Part shown: piece by piece, positions 26,194-40,859 of the stretch
Numbering within the stretch: position 1 is the stretch's first letter
How the letters are laid out: every line of letters begins with the position of its first letter
DNA from: a virus
Strand: one strand, 5' to 3'
Virus record (IMG/VR): IMGVR_UViG_3300045988_036440
Location: 1 to 42,198 of that record
Length of the DNA stretch: 42,198 bases
Translations under genes and position numbers: made by a program
The notes under the pieces: generated by a model
What the model saw: the letters and a program-made list of their open reading frames with translations, nothing else
Told to the model about the DNA's origin: nothing
Databases searched by the model: none

Positions 26194-26329
26194 AGCCGTC
26201 AGCCGGATTTGAACCAGCACCCACGGAATGGATGTGCGCAGTGGTTGGCTGTGCAGTGATGTTCCCGTGGTGTCACCAGCGTTGTCCCGCCTTAAATGGG
26301 CGGCGCTCTCCCAGTTGAGCTATGACGGC
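26194..26329 (-). ncRNA. Aberrant 136-nt tRNA-like RNA. It has a Lys(UUU)-type anticodon loop with A33 and a 68-nt insertion at the variable-loop position.
   Basis: Acceptor GCCGTCA/TGACGGC. D arm GCTC-AACTGGGA-GAGC. Anticodon arm CCGCC-CATTTAA-GGCGG. T arm GCTGG-TTCAAAT-CCGGC. The insertion forms the helix CCACGGGA/TTCCGTGG, capped by a 34-nt C/A-rich loop. Confidence 0.55.
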
Positions 26330-26451: not shown

Positions 26452-26527
26452 TGGCACTCCAGGCAGGGCTCGAACCTGCAACCTACGGTTTTGGAGACCG
26501 CTGCTCTACCACTTGAGCTGCCGGAGT
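26452..26527 (-). tRNA. tRNA-Trp (anticodon CCA), with CCA encoded
   Basis: Acceptor ACTCCGG/CTGGAGT. D arm GCTC-AAGTGGTA-GAGC. Anticodon arm GCGGT-CTCCAAA-ACCGT. T arm GCAGG-TTCGAGC-CCTGC. Discriminator G, then CCA. Confidence 0.85.
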
Positions 26528-32000: not shown

Positions 32001-32801
32001 TTAGGCACTCTTTGCCTCTCCTTTCTTGCGCAAAGGCCTGCGATTTGCAGCGTTTTTGAGGAAATCGGGGGCTTTTGCTGCATCTTCTGGGGGCCGCGTG
32101 ACCAGTTTGTCGCGCCCCGCCCCGATGGGGTTCGTCTTGCGGTACTCTTCCACAGACGTGCAGCCCTGCCGGGCGGCTTCCGCCAGTGCCTTGCGGACAT
32201 AGGCCCAGCTGTGGCCGCCCAGATCCTCGCACTTGCGGATGATCTCTGTCACAAGGTCAGCACCCAGGCGCTCAACGTAAACGGGCAGCTCTTTCCTGCC
32301 TGTTTCGCTCAGCTTTCCGATACGGTCCCGGAACTCTTCAAAAACAATGGTCGTCGTCAAGTCGTCTCGCGCATCCGCGCGCGTGTCGGAGTCTACGATA
32401 GTAGACGACGACTGTACTTTGTACTTTGTACTTTGACCTTTGTACTTTGGTGTGCAAATGGTTTCTGCCGGTTTCTCCGGAAAACCATTTGGTTTTTCTC
32501 GGTTTTCTGCAATAACCATTTGGTTTTTCTCGGTTTTCTTGGGTCTGCCGCCTTTACTGCCGGATTCTCTATGAGCCAAAACGGAACGTTGATACGTTTT
32601 AATATTCTCGTCCATGAACGGTCGAAGTGATTCAAAAGCCATCTGTTCCAGAGGCTCCAGTCCATCCGGTTCCTCTCCGTGCTCCACATACCGCCGCATC
32701 TTGGTGATGGTATTTTTGTACTGCTCAGGTGGAAGAATATCCAAAATCACAAATTTGTCGAATGGAATCATCAACGCTTTCGGCCTGATTTCATCGTCCA
32801 C
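32001..32801 (-). CDS. Replisome organiser / DnaD-domain replication initiation protein
   Basis: The C-terminus GADLVTEIIRKCEDLGGHSWAYVRKALAEAARQG is DnaD-like. Iterons are embedded in the linker region. Confidence 0.7.
   Translation of the reverse strand: MDDEIRPKALMIPFDKFVILDILPPEQYKNTITKMRRYVEHGEEPDGLEPLEQMAFESLRPFMDENIKTYQRSVLAHRESGSKGGRPKKTEKNQMVIAENREKPNGFPEKPAETICTPKYKGQSTKYKVQSSSTIVDSDTRADARDDLTTTIVFEEFRDRIGKLSETGRKELPVYVERLGADLVTEIIRKCEDLGGHSWAYVRKALAEAARQGCTSVEEYRKTNPIGAGRDKLVTRPPEDAAKAPDFLKNAANRRPLRKKGEAKSA
32414..32448. repeat. Five tandem 7-mers: GTACTTT three times, GACCTTT once, GTACTTT once
   Basis: Read directly. Lies inside the replisome organiser gene. Confidence 0.85.
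32483..32539. repeat. Two perfect 26-bp direct repeats, AACCATTTGGTTTTTCTCGGTTTTCT (32483-32508 and 32514-32539)
   Basis: Read directly. The copies start 31 bp apart. Confidence 0.9.
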
Positions 32802-32853: not shown

Positions 32854-33333
32854 TCAGAACGGGAGATCGCCGTCGTCTGTGATCTCTGCGAAATCATCCA
32901 CGGAACCCTGCGAGAAGTTCTGTGCCGCCTGCGGGGCGCTGTGAGAGGCTTTTGCTTCGGAAGTGTAACTTTCCGTCTGCTGGTCGAAATCGCGCACAGT
33001 GGGCTTGTCTGCCGCCTTTGAGCCGCAAAAGCTGACGTTGTTTGCAAGAACCTCCACTTTCGTGCGGTTGCTGCCCTGCTTGTCCTGATACGAGCGGGTC
33101 TGGATACTGCCGTCAATGGCGATCATGCTGCCCTTCTGGAAGTACTTGCAGATAAACTCTGCCGTCTGCCGCCAGGCAACGATATCGATGAAATCGGCCT
33201 TGCGCTCCTCGCCCTTCGTGGTGTATGTACGGTCAACCGCAATGCTGAAGCTGCACACGCTGGTGCCGTTCTGGGTGGTCTTCAGCTCCGGGGTATGGGT
33301 CAGGCGGCCATTCAATGCTACGACGTTAAGCAT
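32854..33333 (-). CDS. ssb: Single-stranded DNA-binding protein
   Basis: OB-fold N-terminus MLNVVALNGRLTHTPELKTTQNGTSVCSFSIAV and acidic tail DDGDLPF. Confidence 0.9.
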   Translation of the reverse strand: MLNVVALNGRLTHTPELKTTQNGTSVCSFSIAVDRTYTTKGEERKADFIDIVAWRQTAEFICKYFQKGSMIAIDGSIQTRSYQDKQGSNRTKVEVLANNVSFCGSKAADKPTVRDFDQQTESYTSEAKASHSAPQAAQNFSQGSVDDFAEITDDGDLPF

Positions 33334-33967
33334 GCGTCAATCCTCCATCTTCTTTCGGCTGCTTTTTGGCACATTCCATGCACAGGATACGCCCGTATTT
33401 TTTCTTGCTCCGGTCAGCCGCCTGCTGAGCAGTGACCTTTTCGCCCTTGTAAGTGAACCCTTCCACGGGCTTCCCGCAGCTGGCGCAGGTGGGCTTTGCC
33501 GGGGACGGTGCTGTGGGCCTGCCGTACTTGGTCGTATCTTTCTCCCAGTAAACATCCGCGCCAATGCCCAGGGCCTTGCAGGCCACGCTCTGCGCGTCCG
33601 TGTAGGCCTTTTTATAGGCTTCGTCATCCGTGCGCTTGCCGTCTTTTTCTGTGGAGATCAGCATCGAGCCGCCCACGCCGGGAATCGGGGCGCTCCATTC
33701 GTTCTTTTCCCCGCTCTCACCGAGCTGCCGAATATAAAGATTGGTGCAGCAGTGCACCATGATCTCTCCGTTTACCCCGGGCTTTTCCTAAAAGAGGGGC
33801 GGATCGAACCGCCAGCCAATGCCAGCGGGACCGAAAAGCTCTGTCAGCTTCTTGACTCTCCACATGGGATTGATGTCCGTCATCCCCTTCAGGCGGCCGC
33901 CGCCGATTGCCTTCCGCGCTTCCTTGGGCACGCCACGGGCGCTTTCATAAATGGTCATTTTGTCCAT
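33326..33967 (-). CDS. Rad52/Sak-type single-strand annealing protein, interrupted by one in-frame TAG (33788-33790), with a C-terminal zinc ribbon
   Basis: ORFs 33788..33967 and 33326..33760 share one frame, separated by TAG plus 9 sense codons. Conserved blocks GGRLKGMTDINPMWRVKKLTELFGPAGIGW and YTDAQSVACKALGIGADVYW lie on either side of the TAG. Confidence 0.6.
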
Positions 33968-34376
33968 GTTTGTACTCCACTTCTTTGCATCCGTGCTCCC
34001 GGCACATACTCTCCAGTTCAGCGTAAGAGCTGTTGTATGCTGTCTCTGCACCGTATGCCAGGTCCTTGATCAATCCGAAGCAGTCCGACTGTGACAGCAC
34101 GATCTCCACCGCATAGACTGCGCGGCCCAATGCTCTGGCCGCTTCCTGGCAGATGTGCACATAATCAGCCTGATCCTCGCCAGTGTATTCCCTGTCCGGG
34201 TGAAGTCTCATATACGACTGCCCACCGGCAACTGCCTTCTGAACCGTGCCGCAGCACCGGGATGCATCGCCCAGCTTTGCCAGAGCGTCCAGAATCAGCG
34301 CCAGCTTCCATTCCGGAATATTGGACGAATAGTTCAGGCAGATTTCTTTTTTTTCATCACACTGCATAAGGATCAC
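33945..34376 (-). CDS. Hypothetical protein (143 aa)
   Basis: ORF in the operon. Its end overlaps the annealase start. Confidence 0.5.
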   Translation of the reverse strand: MILMQCDEKKEICLNYSSNIPEWKLALILDALAKLGDASRCCGTVQKAVAGGQSYMRLHPDREYTGEDQADYVHICQEAARALGRAVYAVEIVLSQSDCFGLIKDLAYGAETAYNSSYAELESMCREHGCKEVEYKHGQNDHL

Positions 34377-34537
34377 CTCATAGATACCTGCTGCCCGGAA
34401 TCGTCCATGACAAGGTACGTGAGCGCCGGGTCAGCCTTTTTGAGCTGATCCGCATACTGTTCCGCATCCTGCACACACCGGAAAGGGATCTCGTTCAGAA
34501 AGACCATATCCGCCCCATAGATCTGAACCGTGCTCAT
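34373..34537 (-). CDS. Small hypothetical protein (54 aa)
   Basis: Start at MSTVQIYGADM (RBS GGGAGGTGG). Confidence 0.5.
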   Translation of the reverse strand: MSTVQIYGADMVFLNEIPFRCVQDAEQYADQLKKADPALTYLVMDDSGQQVSMR

Positions 34538-34692
34538 TTGCGCCACCTCCCGTTTTTCCATGCCCGCCAGACCAGAAAGACCACGACCAGAACGTTGAAT
34601 CCGATCCATAAGGTCAGCCCACGGGCCACCGCCTTTGCCGCCGGGGTGGAAAGTGCTTCCACGGCCCGGAACAGCAGCTCTGTTTTACTCAC
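34534..34692 (-). CDS. Small membrane protein (52 aa, GTG start, one TM helix)
   Basis: RBS AAAGGAG with an 8-nt spacer. Hand translation: VSKTELLFRAVEALSTPAAKAVARGLTLWIGFNVLVVVFLVWRAWKNGRWRK. ATGA overlap with the next gene. Confidence 0.5.
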   Translation of the reverse strand: MSKTELLFRAVEALSTPAAKAVARGLTLWIGFNVLVVVFLVWRAWKNGRWRK

Positions 34693-34719: not shown

Positions 34720-35334
34720 CTTTGCTTTGCCTTTGCTACGCGGAGCATCCCTTCTCCATGCTTTGCCTTTGCTACGCGCGTCTCCGCCTCTACTTGCGTT
34801 TCTTTGCCTTTGCTCTTCAGCGCGAATCTGCTCTACGCCGTTGCGCATCTCTTCGTATCTATGCCTTAGCGAATCGTCGCTCATCCATGCCTTTGCTTTT
34901 CTTTGCGCATCCATGCCTTTGCATTGCCAAGGTCAGCCTGGCTTATCTATGCCTTTGCGATGCATAGCAGAGCGGCGCGTATCTGCTCTACGCCCTTGCG
35001 ATGCCTTGCCGCCCACACCACGCCCAGCCTTGCCTTCGCTTTTCGACACGAGGCCCTGCATTGCCTTTGCTTTGCTTATCGAGGCAAGTCTGATCCAAGC
35101 GATCTACGCCTATCTACGCCGTTGCGCTGCGCTTTCCAGCTGAGCCTTGCCTTTGCCCCGCGCTACACTGCAGTGACTACTGTGCCCCTGCTGAGCAAAC
35201 TTGTCAGCACAATGCCGTTGCCGAGTTATGCGCACATATCCGCGCCTTCGCAAAGCTGTTACAGGCTATCCAGCGCCTTTGCAAATCATATCATTGCCGT
35301 AGCAGATCAAATCCTATCCATGCAATGCCGTTGC
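34720..35334 (+). repeat. Non-coding array of 14 exact, same-orientation copies of GCC[T/G/C]TTGC plus several variants. Extended consensus ATCYAYGCCKTTGC.
   Basis: Exact copies start at 34729, 34765, 34806, 34837, 34889, 34915, 34951, 34992, 35063, 35118, 35149, 35214, 35275 and 35327. Only low-complexity shadow ORFs cross the region. Confidence 0.85.
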
Positions 35335-35964
35335 TCAGTCGATGATGTCAAAGGTGAAGCGGCCCTTGCCGCTGTTTCTCCACTGGCCGATGCCGCGCAG
35401 AACGCCGTAGTCCAGCCACTCCAGAACCGCGTTCTCGAGCGATTCGTCCATGAGAAGGATCTCAAACTCGCAGGTGCTGCCTGCCGGGATCTCCTCGGAG
35501 TTGGCCAGGCTCACACGCTCACCCTGGGCCGTCTGGGCACGCAGGGGGCGCTGGCAGTCGCCGATCTTGCCGTTGACCTTGATGGGGATCATGCGGGGCT
35601 GCGGGAAGATCAGGCCGTCGATGACCTTCTTGTAGGCGGAGATCTTGCCGCTCTCGTTGACGGCCCGCTTCTTGCCTGTTTCTGTCTTGCCGCCCACGCG
35701 GGCCAGCATACCGCAGGAATCCTTAAAGAATCCCTTGATCTGGTAATCATACAGAACCGGCTCTCCGTTCTCGTTGCGAGGGAACACGGTCATGCCCTTG
35801 TCTGCCACGGCATCCGCGCCCAGAGCGGCCACCTCGTCCTCGATCGTGGCAGCATCCGGGCTCTTGCTGGCAATGAAATCCCGGGCAACGTTCTGGTTGG
35901 AGGGCCAAGTGCCCAGCACCGGCTCCAGGAATGTGATCTTGACTTTCAGAATTTTGGTTTTCAT
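35335..35964 (-). CDS. Conserved-looking protein of unknown function (209 aa) with a glycine-rich C-terminus GIGQWRNSGKGRFTF
   Basis: Start at MKTKILKVKITF (RBS AGGAG, 8-nt spacer). Directly upstream, in the transcription direction, of the repeat array. Confidence 0.65.
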   Translation of the reverse strand: MKTKILKVKITFLEPVLGTWPSNQNVARDFIASKSPDAATIEDEVAALGADAVADKGMTVFPRNENGEPVLYDYQIKGFFKDSCGMLARVGGKTETGKKRAVNESGKISAYKKVIDGLIFPQPRMIPIKVNGKIGDCQRPLRAQTAQGERVSLANSEEIPAGSTCEFEILLMDESLENAVLEWLDYGVLRGIGQWRNSGKGRFTFDIID

Positions 35965-37203: not shown

Positions 37204-37902
37204 TTAGAACATGCTGGTCTGGCCGTTGGACTGCCGGATCAGCATCACGGTGTTGGTGCTGGGCTTCCAGCGCTGGATGTACTCCACTGCCTCGTCAAAG
37301 CGCTTGCGGGGAATGTTGTTTCTGCTGCTGACCCGGAACCACATCTGAATGTCCTTGTTGATCTCGCAGTAAACCATGCCCCGTACATGGGAATCGCCGT
37401 AGGCCGGGGCGTTCTTGCCGCCCAGAGCTTCCACAACAACGTGGTTCACGGCATTCTTGAGGGAAAGCTGCTGGTCATAGTCCACGACCATGTTGTTTTC
37501 CAGCGCCGTGATCCGCTGCTCCTGCCTCTGGGTGCGGTCGTCCAGCAGGAACAGCGCCTGCAGCTCCTTGCTGAGCTTGGGCATCTGCGGAGTGGCCAGC
37601 TGCTTCTCCATTGCGTTGAACGCGGCAATGTACTTCAGCTTCCACTCCAGCGCCGCCTTGCCGGTAAAGCCCATCACCAGCAGGCTGAAACCGTCCCGGT
37701 TCATCAGGTAGGTGCGCTGGGGTCTGCCGTAGCTGTCCGGCGTTTCGGTCTCAAAAAACATCTCCCCAAAATTGGGGACATCTTTTTTGATTGTGTCAAT
37801 GTCACGAATCACATGATCGTGGCGCTTTTCGAAGTTCTCAGCGATCTGGCGGCTGGATGCAACCGGCTCGCCGTTCTGGGTAGATAAGATAATGTCTGTC
37901 AT
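37204..37902 (-). CDS. Rha-family phage regulatory protein with an ORF6C-type C-terminal domain
   Basis: The N-terminus VASSRQIAENFEKRHDHVIRDID...YLMNRDGFSLLVMGFTGKAALEWKLKYIAAF matches the Rha family. Confidence 0.8.
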   Translation of the reverse strand: MTDIILSTQNGEPVASSRQIAENFEKRHDHVIRDIDTIKKDVPNFGEMFFETETPDSYGRPQRTYLMNRDGFSLLVMGFTGKAALEWKLKYIAAFNAMEKQLATPQMPKLSKELQALFLLDDRTQRQEQRITALENNMVVDYDQQLSLKNAVNHVVVEALGGKNAPAYGDSHVRGMVYCEINKDIQMWFRVSSRNNIPRKRFDEAVEYIQRWKPSTNTVMLIRQSNGQTSMF

Positions 37903-38137: not shown

Positions 38138-38166
38138 TTGACAAGCGAAAGAAAGCAAGCTATAAT
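38138..38166 (+). promoter_or_regulatory. Perfect consensus promoter: TTGACA, 17-nt spacer, TATAAT, pointing rightward toward the CI-like gene
   Basis: TTGACA at 38138-38143 and TATAAT at 38161-38166. Confidence 0.7.
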
Positions 38167-38235: not shown

Positions 38236-38264
38236 AGTATATATCATTGTTATTAGTTTGTAAA
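38236..38264 (-). promoter_or_regulatory. Leftward promoter: TTTACA, 17-nt spacer, TATACT, pointing toward the Cro-like gene
   Basis: Minus-sense TTTACAAACTAATAACAATGATATATACT. It is flanked or overlapped by ATTAGT(T/A)T repeats. Confidence 0.5.
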
Positions 38265-38326: not shown

Positions 38327-38650
38327 ATGTTTTGGAACAACTTTGAAGCTCTATGTGCTGAAAAGGGTATTTCCTACAATGCAGCAGCCGCCGATGTTGG
38401 TGTAAAATCGTCTGGAACTGTGACCGGTTGGAAAAACGGAGCAAAACCAAGAGGACCTGTATTAAAAAGGTTGGCCGATTACTTCGACGTTACTGTCGAG
38501 GAGCTCACCGGCGAAAACGAGCAAAAAGAAAAGCCCAGCACCGCCGGAGAGATAGATTTGAGTGGTCTATCTCCCGATGATGCCGAGCTTGTAAAGCTTC
38601 TATTGAAAGCGCCAGAAGCAAAGAAGAATGCGATCCGGGCGCTGCTGTGA
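38327..38650 (+). CDS. CI-like XRE HTH repressor (107 aa)
   Basis: HTH pattern FEALCAEKGISYNAAAADVGVKSSGTVTGWKNG. RBS AAAAGGGGG. Confidence 0.75.
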   Translation: MFWNNFEALCAEKGISYNAAAADVGVKSSGTVTGWKNGAKPRGPVLKRLADYFDVTVEELTGENEQKEKPSTAGEIDLSGLSPDDAELVKLLLKAPEAKKNAIRALL

Positions 38651-38782: not shown

Positions 38783-39505
38783 ATGTACGAGGTGTTAGAA
38801 TTGAAATTCAAGCACAAGGGATGTGCCATTGCGAGCGGGTTTGTTTCTCTTTTATTGTTATCACAAGTGCAATTTCATAAAGAAGATTCCCCGTTCAGTA
38901 TCATCTGGTCATCTCTTATTGTCTTTCTGGTATTTTTTTCTTTGTCCTATCTGTTCAGTCGCCTTCTGGTCTTGTTGTTCAGAAAGAAACGCAGCAAACT
39001 ATTGAAGCGGTCTGAGGTGGACTATGACATGTCAGAAACCAATAAGTCCCAAGCAGATGCCATATATACACTCAAAGACGCGCCTGTTCTTTGGAAAAGC
39101 AGTGTATCCGCATTAAAGAATGCCTTAACGCCAGAAGATTTCTTTCGGCTGTATGATGATCTCGTAGATTACGCAAAAGAAATATTGGCGGCGGAATCTG
39201 TCTGGCTTTCTTTCAATGATTCTTCAATTATTTCTAAAGAAAGCAGAGAAAACATTGCTGACGTTGCAAACGGAAATTGTTTTGAAGATGAATTAACTGC
39301 GTTTATTGAACAGTCTTATAAATTGGCAAAAGCTAAAATCGAAGTGAAAGAGACTGCTTCAGATAAAAGGAACGCCGCAAGAGCGTGGCATACCAGTTTT
39401 GACCCTTACTTGTCCAGAATGCCAGAAAAAGAGATTCATCTTCTCCATGAAAAGTACGGCGAACTTATCATGCTTGCTGATACATCAAATCTTTGTTCTC
39501 TGTGA
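38783..39505 (+). CDS. Membrane protein with two N-terminal TM helices and a cytoplasmic domain of about 160 aa. First gene of the AT-rich moron.
   Basis: TM segments CAIASGFVSLLLLSQV and FSIIWSSLIVFLVFFSLSYLFSRLLVLLF, followed by RKKRSK. The likely start is TTG 38801, after GAGGTG. Confidence 0.65.
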   Translation: MYEVLELKFKHKGCAIASGFVSLLLLSQVQFHKEDSPFSIIWSSLIVFLVFFSLSYLFSRLLVLLFRKKRSKLLKRSEVDYDMSETNKSQADAIYTLKDAPVLWKSSVSALKNALTPEDFFRLYDDLVDYAKEILAAESVWLSFNDSSIISKESRENIADVANGNCFEDELTAFIEQSYKLAKAKIEVKETASDKRNAARAWHTSFDPYLSRMPEKEIHLLHEKYGELIMLADTSNLCSL

Positions 39506-39512
39506 GGTTAAA

Positions 39513-40859
39513 ATGTCATTATTTGGAATAAAAGAAAAACAAGAACTTGAGGCCCTTCGTTCCGAGAATCAGAGCGTTACAGAAAAGAACGCTGCGCTTG
39601 AACAAGAACTGGAAGAGCTCAAAAAACAGAACGGCGCTCTTTCTGCAACAGTGGATTCTTTCCCTAAAAACCTTCCTTCATATAATGATATTCAGGAAGA
39701 AATCAAGAAAAGGACCGCTTATCTTGCTGGGTTAAAAGCTACGATTTCAGATACAGAAGATAAGCTAAAAGCGGCAAAACAAAGTCTTATCGAAGTCTCC
39801 GATGCCGTTCAGCTTCAGGATTTTGGCCTGTATACTCCGCACTACAATCTAATGCGTGCGGATGAGTACAAGGCTAAAATGATGGAGATCAGAGCCTTGC
39901 AGAAGGATATGGTTCGCAATGGCTCTGCCGTCACCGGCTCCCAGACCTGGACGGTCAACGGAAACGCTTCTAAGGGCAAAAAGATGGTGGCCGACATGCA
40001 GAAGCTGCTTCTGCGGGCGTTCAACGCTGAATGTGATGACGTAATCGAGCACGTCAAATACAACAACGTGGAAACCGCAGAAAAGCGCATCACATCCTCT
40101 CAGGAGGCAATCACAAAGCTGGGCACGATCATGGGGGTCTCCATTGTCCCTTCCTACTACCGACTGAAGCTGGAAGAACTTTATCTCGCTTTTGAGTACG
40201 CCCAGAAAAAGCAGGAAGAAAAAGAAGAGCAGCGGGAAGCCAGAGCCCAGATGCGGGAAGAGGCCAAGCTCGCAAGAGAAATCGAAGAGGCTCGGAAAAA
40301 GCTCGAAAAAGAGCAGCAGCACTATAATAATGCTCTTGCAAAGGTAAACGCCCAGCTGGATGCCGCTTCTGAAGAGGATCGAGCCGCCATCGAAGAAAAG
40401 AAGAGCATCATCGAGAGCCAGCTCCAGAAGATCGACAAGGAGTTCGCAGACGTGGATTACCGTCAGGCAAATCAGCGTGCCGGATATGTATACATCATTT
40501 CGAACATCGGAGCATTCGGAGAGAATGTGTACAAAATCGGAATGACACGGCGGCTTGACCCTCAGGATCGAGTGGACGAGCTGGGAGACGCTTCTGTTCC
40601 GTTCAATTTCGATGTTCACGCAATGATCTTCTCTGACGATGCGCCGAAACTGGAAGCCGCCCTGCACAACGCATTTGCGGACAGGAAGCTGAACTTCGTC
40701 AACCAGCGGCGGGAGTTCTTTAATGTAACGCTTGAAGAAATCAAAAAAGTTGTGAAAGAAAACTTTGACAAATCCGTTGAGTTCGTCGAACTTGCCCCCG
40801 CACAGCAATACCGTGAATCCATTCTGCTTCGGAAGAAAGTGCAACAGCAAGATAGCTAA
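39513..40859 (+). CDS. DUF4041-like plus T5orf172/MUG113 (GIY-YIG superfamily) domain protein, 448 aa. Candidate defence nuclease.
   Basis: Start at MSLFGIKEK (GAGG 5 nt upstream, overlapping the upstream stop). Long coiled coils. C-terminus GYVYIISNIGAFGENVYKIGMTRRLDPQDRVDELGDASVPFNFDVHAMIF...REFF. Confidence 0.7.
   Translation: MSLFGIKEKQELEALRSENQSVTEKNAALEQELEELKKQNGALSATVDSFPKNLPSYNDIQEEIKKRTAYLAGLKATISDTEDKLKAAKQSLIEVSDAVQLQDFGLYTPHYNLMRADEYKAKMMEIRALQKDMVRNGSAVTGSQTWTVNGNASKGKKMVADMQKLLLRAFNAECDDVIEHVKYNNVETAEKRITSSQEAITKLGTIMGVSIVPSYYRLKLEELYLAFEYAQKKQEEKEEQREARAQMREEAKLAREIEEARKKLEKEQQHYNNALAKVNAQLDAASEEDRAAIEEKKSIIESQLQKIDKEFADVDYRQANQRAGYVYIISNIGAFGENVYKIGMTRRLDPQDRVDELGDASVPFNFDVHAMIFSDDAPKLEAALHNAFADRKLNFVNQRREFFNVTLEEIKKVVKENFDKSVEFVELAPAQQYRESILLRKKVQQQDS

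What the first reader, a model, noticed from the sequence alone, without database searches (positions are those of the whole stretch)
34720..35334. A 0.6-kb non-coding array holds 14 same-strand copies of GCC[T/G/C]TTGC inside the early operon
No credible ORF exists on either strand; only low-complexity shadow ORFs with repeats such as ALPLLR or MPL. The octamer occurs 14 times in one orientation, at 34729, 34765, 34806, 34837, 34889, 34915, 34951, 34992, 35063, 35118, 35149, 35214, 35275 and 35327. Additional one-mismatch copies are present.

Chance expectation is about 0.03 copies in 600 bp. Many copies extend to ATC(T/C)A(T/C)GCC(T/G)TTGC. Spacings cluster at 26, 31, 36 and 41 bp, in steps of about half a helical turn. 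Some stretches form degenerate 26-bp tandem units.

This is far more sites than a typical operator or ori. Candidates are a second origin or iteron field, a centromere-like (parS-type) or nucleoprotein-filament loading site, a titration sponge for a host or phage DNA-binding protein, or a repeat-containing RNA processed from the operon transcript.
Basis: seen in the sequence. Interest (0 to 1): 0.75.

Follow-up and report, generated by a model that had tools for sequence, protein, structure and literature searches.

The report
Phage VIPR guide-RNA repeat array
The 0.6-kb "non-coding array" is most likely the guide-RNA array of a VIPR system, a recently described phage-borne relative of CRISPR in which a small Cas7-like protein (encoded by the gene next door) coats an RNA made of 5-nucleotide repeats; this is a real but already described kind of element, here in a variant form in a human-gut Faecalibacterium phage.

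Summary
All 14 GCCBTTGC copies sit at the stated coordinates on one strand, plus 5 one-mismatch copies.

The octamer is only the visible part of a finer pattern. On the transcribed (minus) strand the region is a run of pentamers, G-(C/A)-N-N-N. The G is 94% conserved and three positions are hypervariable. A one-base slip occurs at each GCAAAGGC, so units measure 5n+1 nt (26, 31, 36, 41).

The adjacent gene 35335-35964(-) has no Pfam or PHROG hit. It is nevertheless a minimal Cas7-like RAMP:
- AF2 model pLDDT 91.
- Foldseek top hits are type VII and type III Cas7.
- hhalign to the characterised SUSP1 Vipr gives E 2e-5 to 4e-5 over the full length.

Gene and array stayed linked and co-oriented in about 130 related loci (47-100% protein identity). 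The array lies upstream or downstream of the gene. Its units are hypervariable even between phages with identical proteins.

This matches VIPR systems (bioRxiv 10.64898/2026.04.26.720920 and .720927). Differences from the studied type II are:
- a single conserved G instead of GGY;
- short "staggered" units with no 3' tail;
- no accessory gene.

Targets and the pairing code could not be determined. The ori, parS and DNA-sponge readings are not supported; the processed-RNA reading is.

The parts
35335..35964 (-). vipr gene. It encodes a 209-aa minimal Cas7-like RAMP with an RRM core, helical bundle (about residues 24-54), beta-hairpin thumb (135-159) and G-loop GIGQWRNSGKGRF (191-203). An AGGAGA RBS lies 8 nt upstream of the ATG at 35964.
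   Evidence: No Pfam, PHROG or PADLOC hit. Profile A1 hits type VII Cas7 in the PDB at E 7.7e-6 and Csm4 G-loops. AF2 pLDDT 90.9. Foldseek top hits are type VII Cas7 (E 2e-9), then Csm3, Cmr4 and Csf2. hhalign to SUSP1 Vipr: E 2e-5. Family-to-family hhalign: E 4.4e-5. It is the best hit in the whole SUSP1 ORF set.
34720..35334 (-). vrRNA array, about 20 head-to-tail units on the transcribed strand. Each unit reads [G] GCRNN (GMNNN)n GCAAA, giving lengths of 5n+1 nt. It starts directly after the vipr stop codon and ends 27 nt before the GTG of the next ORF.
   Evidence: The predicted RNA is unstructured (z = +1.28). No Rfam match even at E<=1. No promoter or terminator consensus inside it on the minus strand.
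35152..35334 (-). Gene-proximal part of the array. Units are more degenerate (31, 21, 31, 30, 30, 35 nt) and are largely shared between phages with near-identical Vipr.
   Evidence: Viterbi parse. Unit-ID comparison of 17 arrays.
34720..35151 (-). Distal part of the array. Units are mostly regular (31, 55, 31, 40, 41, 36, 26, 26, 26, 31, 41, 36 nt) and differ between otherwise near-identical phages.
   Evidence: Across all loci, 449 distinct units were found, 349 of them in a single locus.
34954..34994 (-). Example of one fully regular 41-nt unit: G GCGTA GAGCA GATAC GCGCC GCTCT GCTAT GCATC GCAAA.
   Evidence: It was used for the exact target scans.
34534..34692 (-). Next ORF of the early operon (52 aa, GTG start, AAAGGAG RBS immediately after the array). 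It shows the array is embedded in the operon transcript.
38236..38264 (-). Sigma-70-like promoter (TTTACA-17-TATACT) at the head of the minus-strand early operon. It diverges from a + strand promoter (38138-38166) that faces the CI-like HTH repressor gene at 38327-38650(+). It is the presumed source of the transcript carrying vipr and the array.
   Evidence: This is a consensus match only.

Best explanation
The array (34720-35334) and the gene 35335-35964, both on the minus strand, form a VIPR (Viral Interference Programmable Repeat) system of a temperate Faecalibacterium phage.

Proposed mechanism:
1. The early operon transcript carries vipr followed by the array.
2. The array RNA is a chain of pentanucleotide repeats. 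One Vipr protomer binds each pentamer, anchoring on the conserved G (and the following C/A) through the G-loop Trp/Arg and the thumb Arg. This forms a helical RAMP filament that displays the hypervariable bases.
3. The +1 slip at each GCAAAG|GC core marks the junction between consecutive short guide units, as in a 'staggered' array.
4. By analogy with the characterised SUSP1 and P. fulva systems, the displayed bases read a gapped sequence in double-stranded DNA of a competing phage or prophage and silence its transcription.

Shown here: the RAMP fold, remote homology to SUSP1 Vipr, the pentamer architecture, conserved linkage and co-orientation, and hypervariability.

Inferred by analogy only: transcription and processing into separate vrRNAs, filament formation, DNA targeting, and the identity of targets.
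For: Protein:
- RAMP fold with G-loop and thumb.
- Full-length profile match to SUSP1 Vipr. I identified that protein as NC_028808 agp039. Nine of the ten residues cited in the companion structure paper (10.64898/2026.04.26.720927) match its numbering; the exception is position 175, cited as T175, which reads V. Its flanks carry YNNGG arrays.
- The G2-contacting residues are kept (SUSP1 W178/R179 = our W195/R196). An R-P motif in the thumb region (R139-P140) resembles SUSP1 R138-P139 by eye, although hhalign did not align the two. The G1-contacting residues are replaced (H17->T19, D177->Q194). This fits an array in which only one G per pentamer is conserved.

Array:
- 5-nt periodicity, z = 8.7.
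- Pentamer profile G 94% / M 89% / N N N.
- Units of 5n+1 nt, matching the paper's 'staggered arrays' with 1-nt overlaps and its alternative YNNNG/NNNNG consensus.

Linkage:
- The array is present and sense-oriented next to the gene in about 130 loci. In the closer relatives there are 5-20 sense against 0-1 antisense cores.
- In relatives of 47-71% identity the array lies downstream, or upstream in at least 6 loci.
- Hosts include Oscillospiraceae, Olsenella and Dehalococcoidia MAGs.

Variability: 99 distinct inter-core segments occur among 17 phages with at least 99% identical Vipr.

Context: phage early operon, with no CRISPR-type array in the window and no cas gene among the flanking genes scanned (27-42 kb).
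Against: - Homology to SUSP1 Vipr is remote (hhalign probability 69-77%). By fold alone the protein is as close to CRISPR Cas7.
- The canonical GGY motif is absent.
- Units have only 4-8 pentamers (in one case 11), against 9-16 in the studied vrRNAs. No structured 3' tail or ribozyme was found. A single unit would therefore carry little specificity under the published NN code.
- No conserved accessory (vap) gene.
- No target was found under any tested code.
- No expression data exist for this locus.
- I could not check whether this clade is in the paper's set of 667 systems, because its supplementary tables are not held.
Confidence: 0.87

Rival explanations
1. The RAMP and array RNA form a ribonucleoprotein that is not a DNA-targeting guide. 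It could be a decoy that mimics Cas7-crRNA filaments and sequesters host type III or type I CRISPR subunits, or another host RNA-binding factor. On this view the short units and single-G code reflect scaffolding rather than programmable recognition.
For: Units are short. No targets were found under any tested code. RNA-based anti-CRISPRs that mimic repeats exist in phages (PMC10651486, listed). The gene-proximal units are conserved rather than variable.
Against: A scaffold or decoy would not need three hypervariable positions per pentamer, nor cassette-like turnover of units between phages with identical proteins. The homologous SUSP1 system has been shown experimentally to be a programmable DNA-binding guide system (10.64898/2026.04.26.720920). 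The core bears no resemblance to a CRISPR repeat.
Confidence: 0.07
2. The array is a DNA-level protein-binding field (iterons of a second origin, a parS-like centromere, or a titration sponge).
For: There are many same-strand copies of a short motif. Spacings can be read as multiples of half a helical turn. The array lies just upstream of the recombination and replication module.
Against: - Orientation relative to vipr is invariant whether the array is 5' or 3' of it.
- The period is exactly 5 nt with discrete +1 slips, not 10.5/2.
- There are no inverted repeats.
- The sequence between cores is hypervariable.
- The only conserved partner is a RAMP; flanking genes, including replication modules, differ among relatives.
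- A more ordinary iteron-like repeat cluster lies inside the DnaD-like gene at 32413-32538.
Confidence: 0.03
3. The locus is a degenerate or miniature CRISPR-Cas remnant: a solo Cas7 with a decayed CRISPR array.
For: The closest solved structures are type VII and type III Cas7. A 71%-identical viral protein is already labelled 'Cas system-associated RAMP superfamily protein' in BFVD.
Against: There are no 24-48-nt repeats and no CRISPR-type array in the window, and no other cas gene among the flanking genes scanned (27-42 kb). The 'spacers' themselves carry the 5-nt G period, which CRISPR spacers do not. The family is very large and consistently solo in phages.
Confidence: 0.03

Closest known systems
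VIPR systems (Vipr RAMP + vrRNA), type II of Escherichia phage SUSP1 and the P. fulva prophage; bioRxiv 10.64898/2026.04.26.720920 and 10.64898/2026.04.26.720927
   Same: - A phage-encoded protein of about 20 kDa with a single RRM, G-loop, thumb and helical bundle.
- Flanking sense-strand arrays of pentanucleotide repeats with conserved G and hypervariable positions.
- No cas genes among the flanking genes scanned.
- Hypervariable arrays between close relatives.
- The G-loop W-R dipeptide is conserved, and an R-P motif in the thumb region resembles the SUSP1 thumb R138-P139.
   Different: - The pentamer is G-M-N-N-N (one conserved G, three free positions) instead of G-G-Y-N-N.
- The residues that read the first G in SUSP1 (H17, D177) are T and Q here.
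- Units have mostly 4-8 pentamers joined head to tail by a +1 slip at GCAAAG|GC, instead of 9-16 repeats plus a pseudoknotted 3' tail.
- There is no vap gene.
- The host is a Gram-positive gut anaerobe.
- Targets are unknown.
'Staggered' vrRNA arrays and alternative repeat consensus (YNNNG, NNNNG) mentioned for other VIPR types in the same preprint (fig. S17, S18; methods)
   Same: Units abut with a one-nucleotide offset. The repeat consensus is reduced to a single G followed by a mostly-C base.
   Different: I could read only the legends and methods, so identity with a specific VIPR type (I-VII) could not be established.
Class 1 CRISPR Cas7 backbone filaments (type III Csm3/Cmr4, type VII Cas7)
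   Same: The same fold (Foldseek TM about 0.55, probability 1.0). In VIPR as published, one protomer binds each RNA segment and a thumb flips out bases periodically.
   Different: - The period is 5 nt with sequence-specific recognition of the flipped G, against 6 nt without sequence requirement.
- There is no Cas5, Cas6, Cas10 or Cas11, no CRISPR repeats and no adaptation genes.
- The guide information is non-contiguous.
TIGR-Tas (tandem interspaced guide RNA arrays with Nop-domain Tas proteins)
   Same: It is phage-borne, with compact arrays of short tandem guide units next to a single small effector gene.
   Different: The effector here is a RAMP, not a Nop-domain protein. The units have a pentamer substructure rather than two spacers between conserved edges. 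This comparison rests on my recollection of the TIGR-Tas description and was not tested here.

Membership tests
VIPR system | The effector is a minimal RAMP: a single RRM core with a glycine-rich loop and thumb (plus a helical bundle), about 20 kDa | tested here: met
   AF2 model pLDDT 90.9 shows a beta-hairpin at 135-159, helices at 24-54 and a C-terminal G-loop. Foldseek gives probability 1.0 to type VII/III Cas7. The profile hits Cas7 and the Csm4 G-loop.
VIPR system | Sequence homology to an experimentally characterised Vipr (SUSP1) | tested here: met
   SUSP1 agp039 was identified as Vipr by residue numbering. It is the top hit of our profile among all SUSP1 ORFs (E 0.0078). hhalign gives E 2e-5 with 77% probability over 174 columns. 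Family-to-family hhalign gives E 4.4e-5 with 69% probability over 177 columns. The homology is remote but full-length.
VIPR system | Conservation of the vrRNA-contacting residues described for SUSP1 (H17, D177 for G1; R138, W178 for G2; R179 and others for Y3) | tested here: inconclusive
   W178/R179 correspond to W195/R196, which are (near-)invariant in our family. An R-P motif (R139-P140, R139 invariant) resembles SUSP1 R138-P139 by eye only; hhalign did not align the two. H17 aligns with T19 and D177 with Q194. The G2 contacts are kept and the G1 contacts replaced. This rests on an alignment, not on a structure of the complex.
VIPR system | Tandem pentanucleotide repeats with a conserved G motif alternating with hypervariable bases, flanking vipr on the sense strand | tested here: met
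   Lag-5 autocorrelation z = 8.7. Pentamer profile: G 94%, C/A 89%, then three positions with IC <= 0.07 bit. Sense orientation holds in about 130 loci.
VIPR system | Canonical GGY/NN (YNNGG) repeat consensus | tested here: not met
   The position before the conserved G is unconstrained (A .29, C .21, G .25, T .24). The base after it is C/A rather than C/T. This fits the 'related consensus' classes YNNNG/NNNNG that the preprint allows, so it argues against type II-like membership, not against VIPR.
VIPR system | vrRNA of 9-16 repeats capped by a conserved structured 3' tail (type II architecture) | tested here: not met
   Units have mostly 4-8 pentamers. The only conserved element is the roughly 9-nt GCAAAGGCR junction. 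The fold is not more stable than shuffles (z +1.28). No Rfam ribozyme or other family matches. This is compatible with the 'staggered array' architecture of fig. S18.
VIPR system | Non-CRISPR, mostly viral or proviral context | tested here: met
   The locus lies in the early operon of a temperate phage: Rha, SSB, a DnaD-like gene, a CI-like repressor and a tRNA. No cas genes were found among the flanking genes scanned and no CRISPR-type repeats in the window. Relatives come from IMG/VR contigs and prophages in gut MAGs.
VIPR system | Adjacent accessory gene (vap) | tested here: not met
   Clustering the ORFs flanking vipr in 49 diverse loci found no conserved neighbour. The preprint also reports stand-alone vipr genes, so this is not disqualifying.
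VIPR system | The array is transcribed, processed into vrRNAs and bound by Vipr | not testable with these tools
   No RNA-seq or biochemistry is available. Only indirect support exists: operon position, co-orientation, and no internal terminator.
VIPR system | The variable bases specify gapped DNA targets (1-nt skip rule) in competing mobile elements | tested here: inconclusive
   NN or NNN read-outs with skips 0-3 were searched against 1.67 Mb of related phage DNA. They gave no excess over shuffled guides. Exact IMG/VR scans for one 41-nt unit (NNN, skip 0 and skip 1) gave 0 hits. The local database is too small, and NN patterns are too short, for a real test.
CRISPR-Cas (class 1) | CRISPR array of 24-48-nt repeats with unconstrained spacers, plus further cas genes (Cas5, Cas6, large subunit) | tested here: not met
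   and the periodic G inside the 'spacers'.
Iteron origin / parS centromere | Double-stranded DNA sites for an initiator or ParB, independent of transcription direction, usually with an adjacent cognate gene or AT-rich unwinding element | tested here: not met
   Strict co-orientation with a RAMP gene at either side. GC of 0.54-0.55 with no AT-rich element. No inverted repeats. No Rep or ParB gene adjoins the array; the DnaD-like replication gene lies about 1.9 kb away across several other ORFs.
TIGR-Tas | Nop-domain Tas effector | tested here: not met
   The effector has a RAMP fold. There is no Nop Pfam hit and no Nop structures among the top Foldseek hits.

The most novel reading that the evidence does not exclude
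This very abundant gut-phage clade may use a different VIPR code from the one published. Each protomer would anchor on a single G (the G1-reading residues are lost) and display three free nucleotides rather than two. Guide units would be only 4-8 pentamers long and chained by +1 register slips. Specificity would then come either from a triplet-based pairing rule or from several short units acting together along one filament or one target. Either way, the published GGY/NN 1-nt-skip rule would not transfer directly.
Probability: 0.3. Interest if true: 0.7.

Novelty: new member of a known kind. Interest (0 to 1): 0.5.

Why it matters
VIPR was described only in 2026 preprints, and the experiments cover two proteobacterial systems. 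This locus shows the same kind of system inside a temperate phage of Faecalibacterium, a dominant human-gut commensal.

The protein family is large and unannotated. It has more than 7,700 clusters at 90% identity and 1,711 at 50%, with no Pfam or PHROG model.

Arrays differ between phages that are otherwise nearly identical. This implies fast-moving phage-versus-phage conflict in the gut.

The variant repeat (one G, three free bases) comes with matching substitutions in the G-loop and in the first beta-strand of the RRM core. That offers a natural experiment on how the protein sets the RNA code, which is relevant for engineering these very small programmable DNA binders.

For annotation, such 'non-coding gaps' next to a 200-aa hypothetical protein can now be labelled.

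Tried and rejected
- Rfam at gathering thresholds on the whole window, and at E<=1 on the array: only tRNAs, nothing in the array.
- Coding potential: only broken low-complexity ORFs.
- CsrA-type GGA sponge: the GGA is not conserved (sequence inspection).
- TIGR-Tas: dropped once the protein proved to be a RAMP.
- Direct tblastn of the protein against GenBank phages: it did not reach SUSP1. Profile methods were needed.
- The genome-contig scan with the alignment failed for lack of a conserved block. It was redone with the single protein.
- Target prediction:
  - NN (two framings) and NNN read-outs with skips 0-3 against all fetched loci plus the window showed no excess over shuffled guides. 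The only perfect matches were 12-nt chance hits.
  - Two exact IMG/VR scans gave no hit.
- Differences between near-identical units by pentamer phase: not informative about which positions pair.
- Apparent depletion of stop triplets in the variable NNN: it disappeared as a specific signal against a first-order Markov expectation, since ATT and AGT are more depleted and TTT is enriched. There is therefore no evidence for a codon-like triplet code.
- Search for a conserved accessory gene: none found.

Full report
**1. The observation**

The window holds 26 copies against 9.5 +/- 3.0 in dinucleotide-preserving shuffles. Five further one-mismatch copies lie inside the array on the same strand. The longer form ATCYAYGCCKTTGC occurs 4 times exactly and twice with one mismatch, against 0.13 expected. 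All six frames contain only short broken ORFs.

**2. Anatomy**

Nearly all genes of the window are on the minus strand. The region lies in the early operon of a temperate phage. In order along the minus strand:
- a CI-like HTH repressor at 38327-38650(+), divergent from a promoter-like site at 38264-38236(-);
- Rha/ORF6C at 37204-37902(-);
- several small ORFs;
- a 209-aa ORF at 35335-35964(-);
- the array;
- three small ORFs;
- an ERF-like gene, SSB, a DnaD-like replication gene and methyltransferases.

Read on the transcribed strand, the octamer is GCAAVGGC. It is only the most visible part of a finer pattern:
- Autocorrelation shows a strong 5-nt period (lag 5, z = 8.7; lag 10, z = 6.3) and peaks at 26, 31, 36 and 41.
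- A position profile around the cores shows G at -10, -5, 0, then 5/6, then 11, 16, 21, 26, 31. That is G every 5 nt with a single +1 slip inside each core.
- Pooling 449 distinct units from related arrays gives the pentamer G (94%), C/A (89%), N, N, N. The last three positions carry at most 0.07 bit.
- A Viterbi parse of the window array gives about 20 units of the form [G] GCRNN (GMNNN)n GCAAA. The gene-proximal third is degenerate. The rest is mostly regular, with lengths 31, 55, 31, 40, 41, 36, 26, 26, 26, 31, 41, 36.

The RNA is predicted to be no more structured than shuffles (z = +1.28). It matches no Rfam family even at E<=1. It contains no promoter or terminator consensus on the minus strand.

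**3. The neighbouring gene**

The 209-aa protein has no Pfam, PHROG or PADLOC hit. It nevertheless belongs to a very large unannotated family: 7,759 clusters at 90% identity scored at E <= 0.001 among 8,000 candidates, and 1,711 representatives at 50% identity.

Evidence that it is a RAMP:
- A profile of 57 diverse members (A1) has invariant G78, K81, R139, S156, G191, R196 and G201, and a C-terminal motif GxGQWRNxGxGRF.
- The profile matches the type VII CRISPR Cas7 in the PDB (E 7.7e-6) and the G-loops of Csm4.
- The AlphaFold model is confident (pLDDT 90.9, pTM 0.85).
- Its best structural matches are type VII Cas7 (E 2e-9, TM 0.55-0.58), then type III Csm3/Cmr4 and type IV Csf2.
- In BFVD a 71%-identical viral protein is already labelled 'Cas system-associated RAMP superfamily protein'.

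**4. Linkage**

- In the 84 closer-relative loci that could be parsed (L004-L087, 77-100% protein identity), the 900 nt downstream of the gene carry 5-20 sense-strand cores and 0-1 antisense cores.
- In relatives of 47-71% identity from MAGs labelled Oscillospiraceae, Lachnospiraceae, Olsenella and even Dehalococcoidia, a 5-nt-periodic array is again next to the gene. It lies downstream, or upstream in L088, L090, L104, L122, L128 and L130, and is always sense-oriented.
- Across 116 distinct arrays, 720 of 1105 core spacings are 1 mod 5 and 184 are 2 mod 5, the latter being two units with a missed core.
- The units are hypervariable: 349 of 449 occur in a single locus.
- Among 17 phages whose protein is at least 99% identical there are 99 distinct inter-core segments, 68 of them singletons. 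The gene-proximal units are shared and the distal ones turn over.
- No other gene is conserved next to the pair.

**5. Identification**

A full-text search found two 2026 preprints from one laboratory: 10.64898/2026.04.26.720920 and 10.64898/2026.04.26.720927. They describe VIPR systems as follows:
- A phage-encoded minimal RAMP of about 20 kDa (Vipr) sits next to intergenic arrays that encode vrRNAs.
- The vrRNAs are made of tandem pentanucleotide repeats. YNNGG is typical, and NNNGG, YNNNG and NNNNG variants occur.
- One protomer binds each repeat, forming a helical filament.
- The conserved bases are flipped out and held by the G-loop and thumb.
- The variable bases pair with double-stranded DNA, skipping every third target base, and silence transcription of competing phages.
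- Seven types are described. They include 'staggered arrays' whose vrRNAs abut with a 1-nt overlap, and stand-alone vipr genes.

I tested membership directly.
- In Escherichia phage SUSP1 (NC_028808) the 195-aa ORF agp039 sits between two long intergenic regions full of YNNGG repeats.
- It has H17, K33, E71, M72, R138, C173, D177, W178 and R179 at the positions cited in the structure paper, nine of the ten cited residues. The exception is position 175, cited as T175, which reads V. I therefore take agp039 to be the SUSP1 Vipr.
- Our family profile ranks it first among all SUSP1 ORFs.
- hhalign aligns it over its full length at E 2e-5.
- A profile of its own family (A2) aligns at E 4.4e-5.

The alignment pairs SUSP1 G-V-G-D177-W178-R179 with our G-I-G-Q194-W195-R196, and SUSP1 H17 with our T19. 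So the residues that hold the second G (Trp stacking) and Arg179, a Y3-pocket contact, are kept. An R-P motif in the thumb region (R139-P140, with R139 invariant in our family) resembles SUSP1 R138-P139, but hhalign did not align the two, so that equivalence is by eye. The two residues that read the first G are replaced. This agrees with the array, where the position before the conserved G is free.

**6. Mechanism and its limits**

Most likely the early transcript carries vipr and the array. Vipr protomers polymerise on the pentamers, anchored on each G. The GCAAAG|GC junctions delimit short guide units. The exposed bases direct the filament to DNA of a competitor.

Only the architecture, homology, linkage and variability are shown here. 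The rest is inferred by analogy.

Two things do not fit the published type II picture and remain unexplained:
- The units are short, with 3-6 fully variable pentamers. Under the NN code that is only 6-12 specified bases.
- Three positions per pentamer are free rather than two.

I looked for targets with NN and NNN read-outs and skips 0-3. The search space was 1.67 Mb of related phage DNA, including the window. There was no excess over shuffled guides. Two exact scans of IMG/VR for one 41-nt unit found nothing. These tests have little power, so the targets and the code of this clade are open. A suggestive depletion of stop triplets in the variable positions was not specific once dinucleotide effects were modelled.

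**7. Rivals**

- DNA-level readings (origin, centromere, DNA sponge). These are contradicted by the invariant orientation relative to a gene that can lie on either side, the exact 5-nt register with +1 slips, the lack of inverted repeats, and the RNA-binding nature of the only conserved partner. A more ordinary iteron-like repeat cluster sits inside the DnaD-like gene.
- A CRISPR remnant. This is contradicted by the absence of CRISPR repeats in the window and of other cas genes among those scanned, and by the periodic G inside the 'spacers'.
- A non-guide RNP, such as a decoy. Sequence alone cannot exclude this, but it does not explain the hypervariable positions.

**8. Verdict**

This is a real, conserved, functional-looking element. 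It is best filed as a new member of the recently described VIPR kind, carrying a variant repeat code and a staggered short-unit architecture. Among its interpretations only the processed-RNA option survives.

Noticed in passing
window 39399-40859 (+), within the low-GC stretch 38.1-39.9 kb: The 486-aa protein matches the PD-Lambda-1 anti-phage defence protein (PADLOC E 3e-161; Pfam DUF4041 + T5orf172). It lies just beyond the CI-like repressor gene (38327-38650), separated from it by an unannotated 240-aa ORF (38783-39505), and part of it falls in a region about 15 points lower in GC than the rest of the phage. It is a likely prophage-carried defence moron.
   Followed up: partly
window 33326-33760 (-) and 33788-34051 (-): Two consecutive ORFs match the N- and C-terminal parts of the same PHROG (phrog_7838 'exonuclease', ERF-like recombination protein). 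The gene appears to be split by a frameshift or stop: a pseudogene, an assembly error or recoding.
   Followed up: no
window 26194-26329 (-): Rfam calls a 136-nt tRNA (44.6 bits) that default ARAGORN misses. With introns allowed, ARAGORN reads tRNA-Val(tac) with a 49-nt insertion in the anticodon loop. It lies next to an ordinary tRNA-Trp at 26452-26527.
   Followed up: partly
window 32413-32538, inside the DnaD-like replication gene 32001-32801 (-): Tandem repeats are present (a 7-mer x5.3 and a 31-mer x2.3). This is a more conventional candidate for the phage's replication-origin iterons than the array under study.
   Followed up: no
proteins P0141 (458 aa) and P0159 (432 aa) from the representative search: These double-length homologues have two matched stretches each. 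They look like tandem Vipr-Vipr fusions, reminiscent of fused Cas7 repeats in type III-E.
   Followed up: no
loci L030, L036, L037, L040, L042, L071; and L088, L090, L104, L122, L128, L130: In six close relatives the array starts about 560-580 nt downstream of the gene, suggesting an insertion between gene and array. In six more distant relatives the array lies upstream of the gene instead of downstream.
   Followed up: partly
window 35362-35369: A core-like octamer (GCAAGGGC on the minus strand) lies inside the vipr coding sequence, where it encodes the G-K-G of the glycine-rich loop, 35 nt before the first array core. It is probably a coincidence, but it means the array motif and the G-loop codons resemble each other.
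   Followed up: no
loci L008-L023 compared with window 34720-35334: Among 17 phages with at least 99% identical Vipr, the gene-proximal units are shared while the distal units are mostly unique. This polarity is reminiscent of CRISPR arrays, although no acquisition machinery is evident.
   Followed up: partly
BFVD entry A0A8S5R426 (Siphoviridae sp. ctcMb1): A 71%-identical viral protein already carries the name 'Cas system-associated RAMP superfamily protein'. At least one annotation pipeline had therefore recognised the RAMP relationship before VIPR was described.
   Followed up: no
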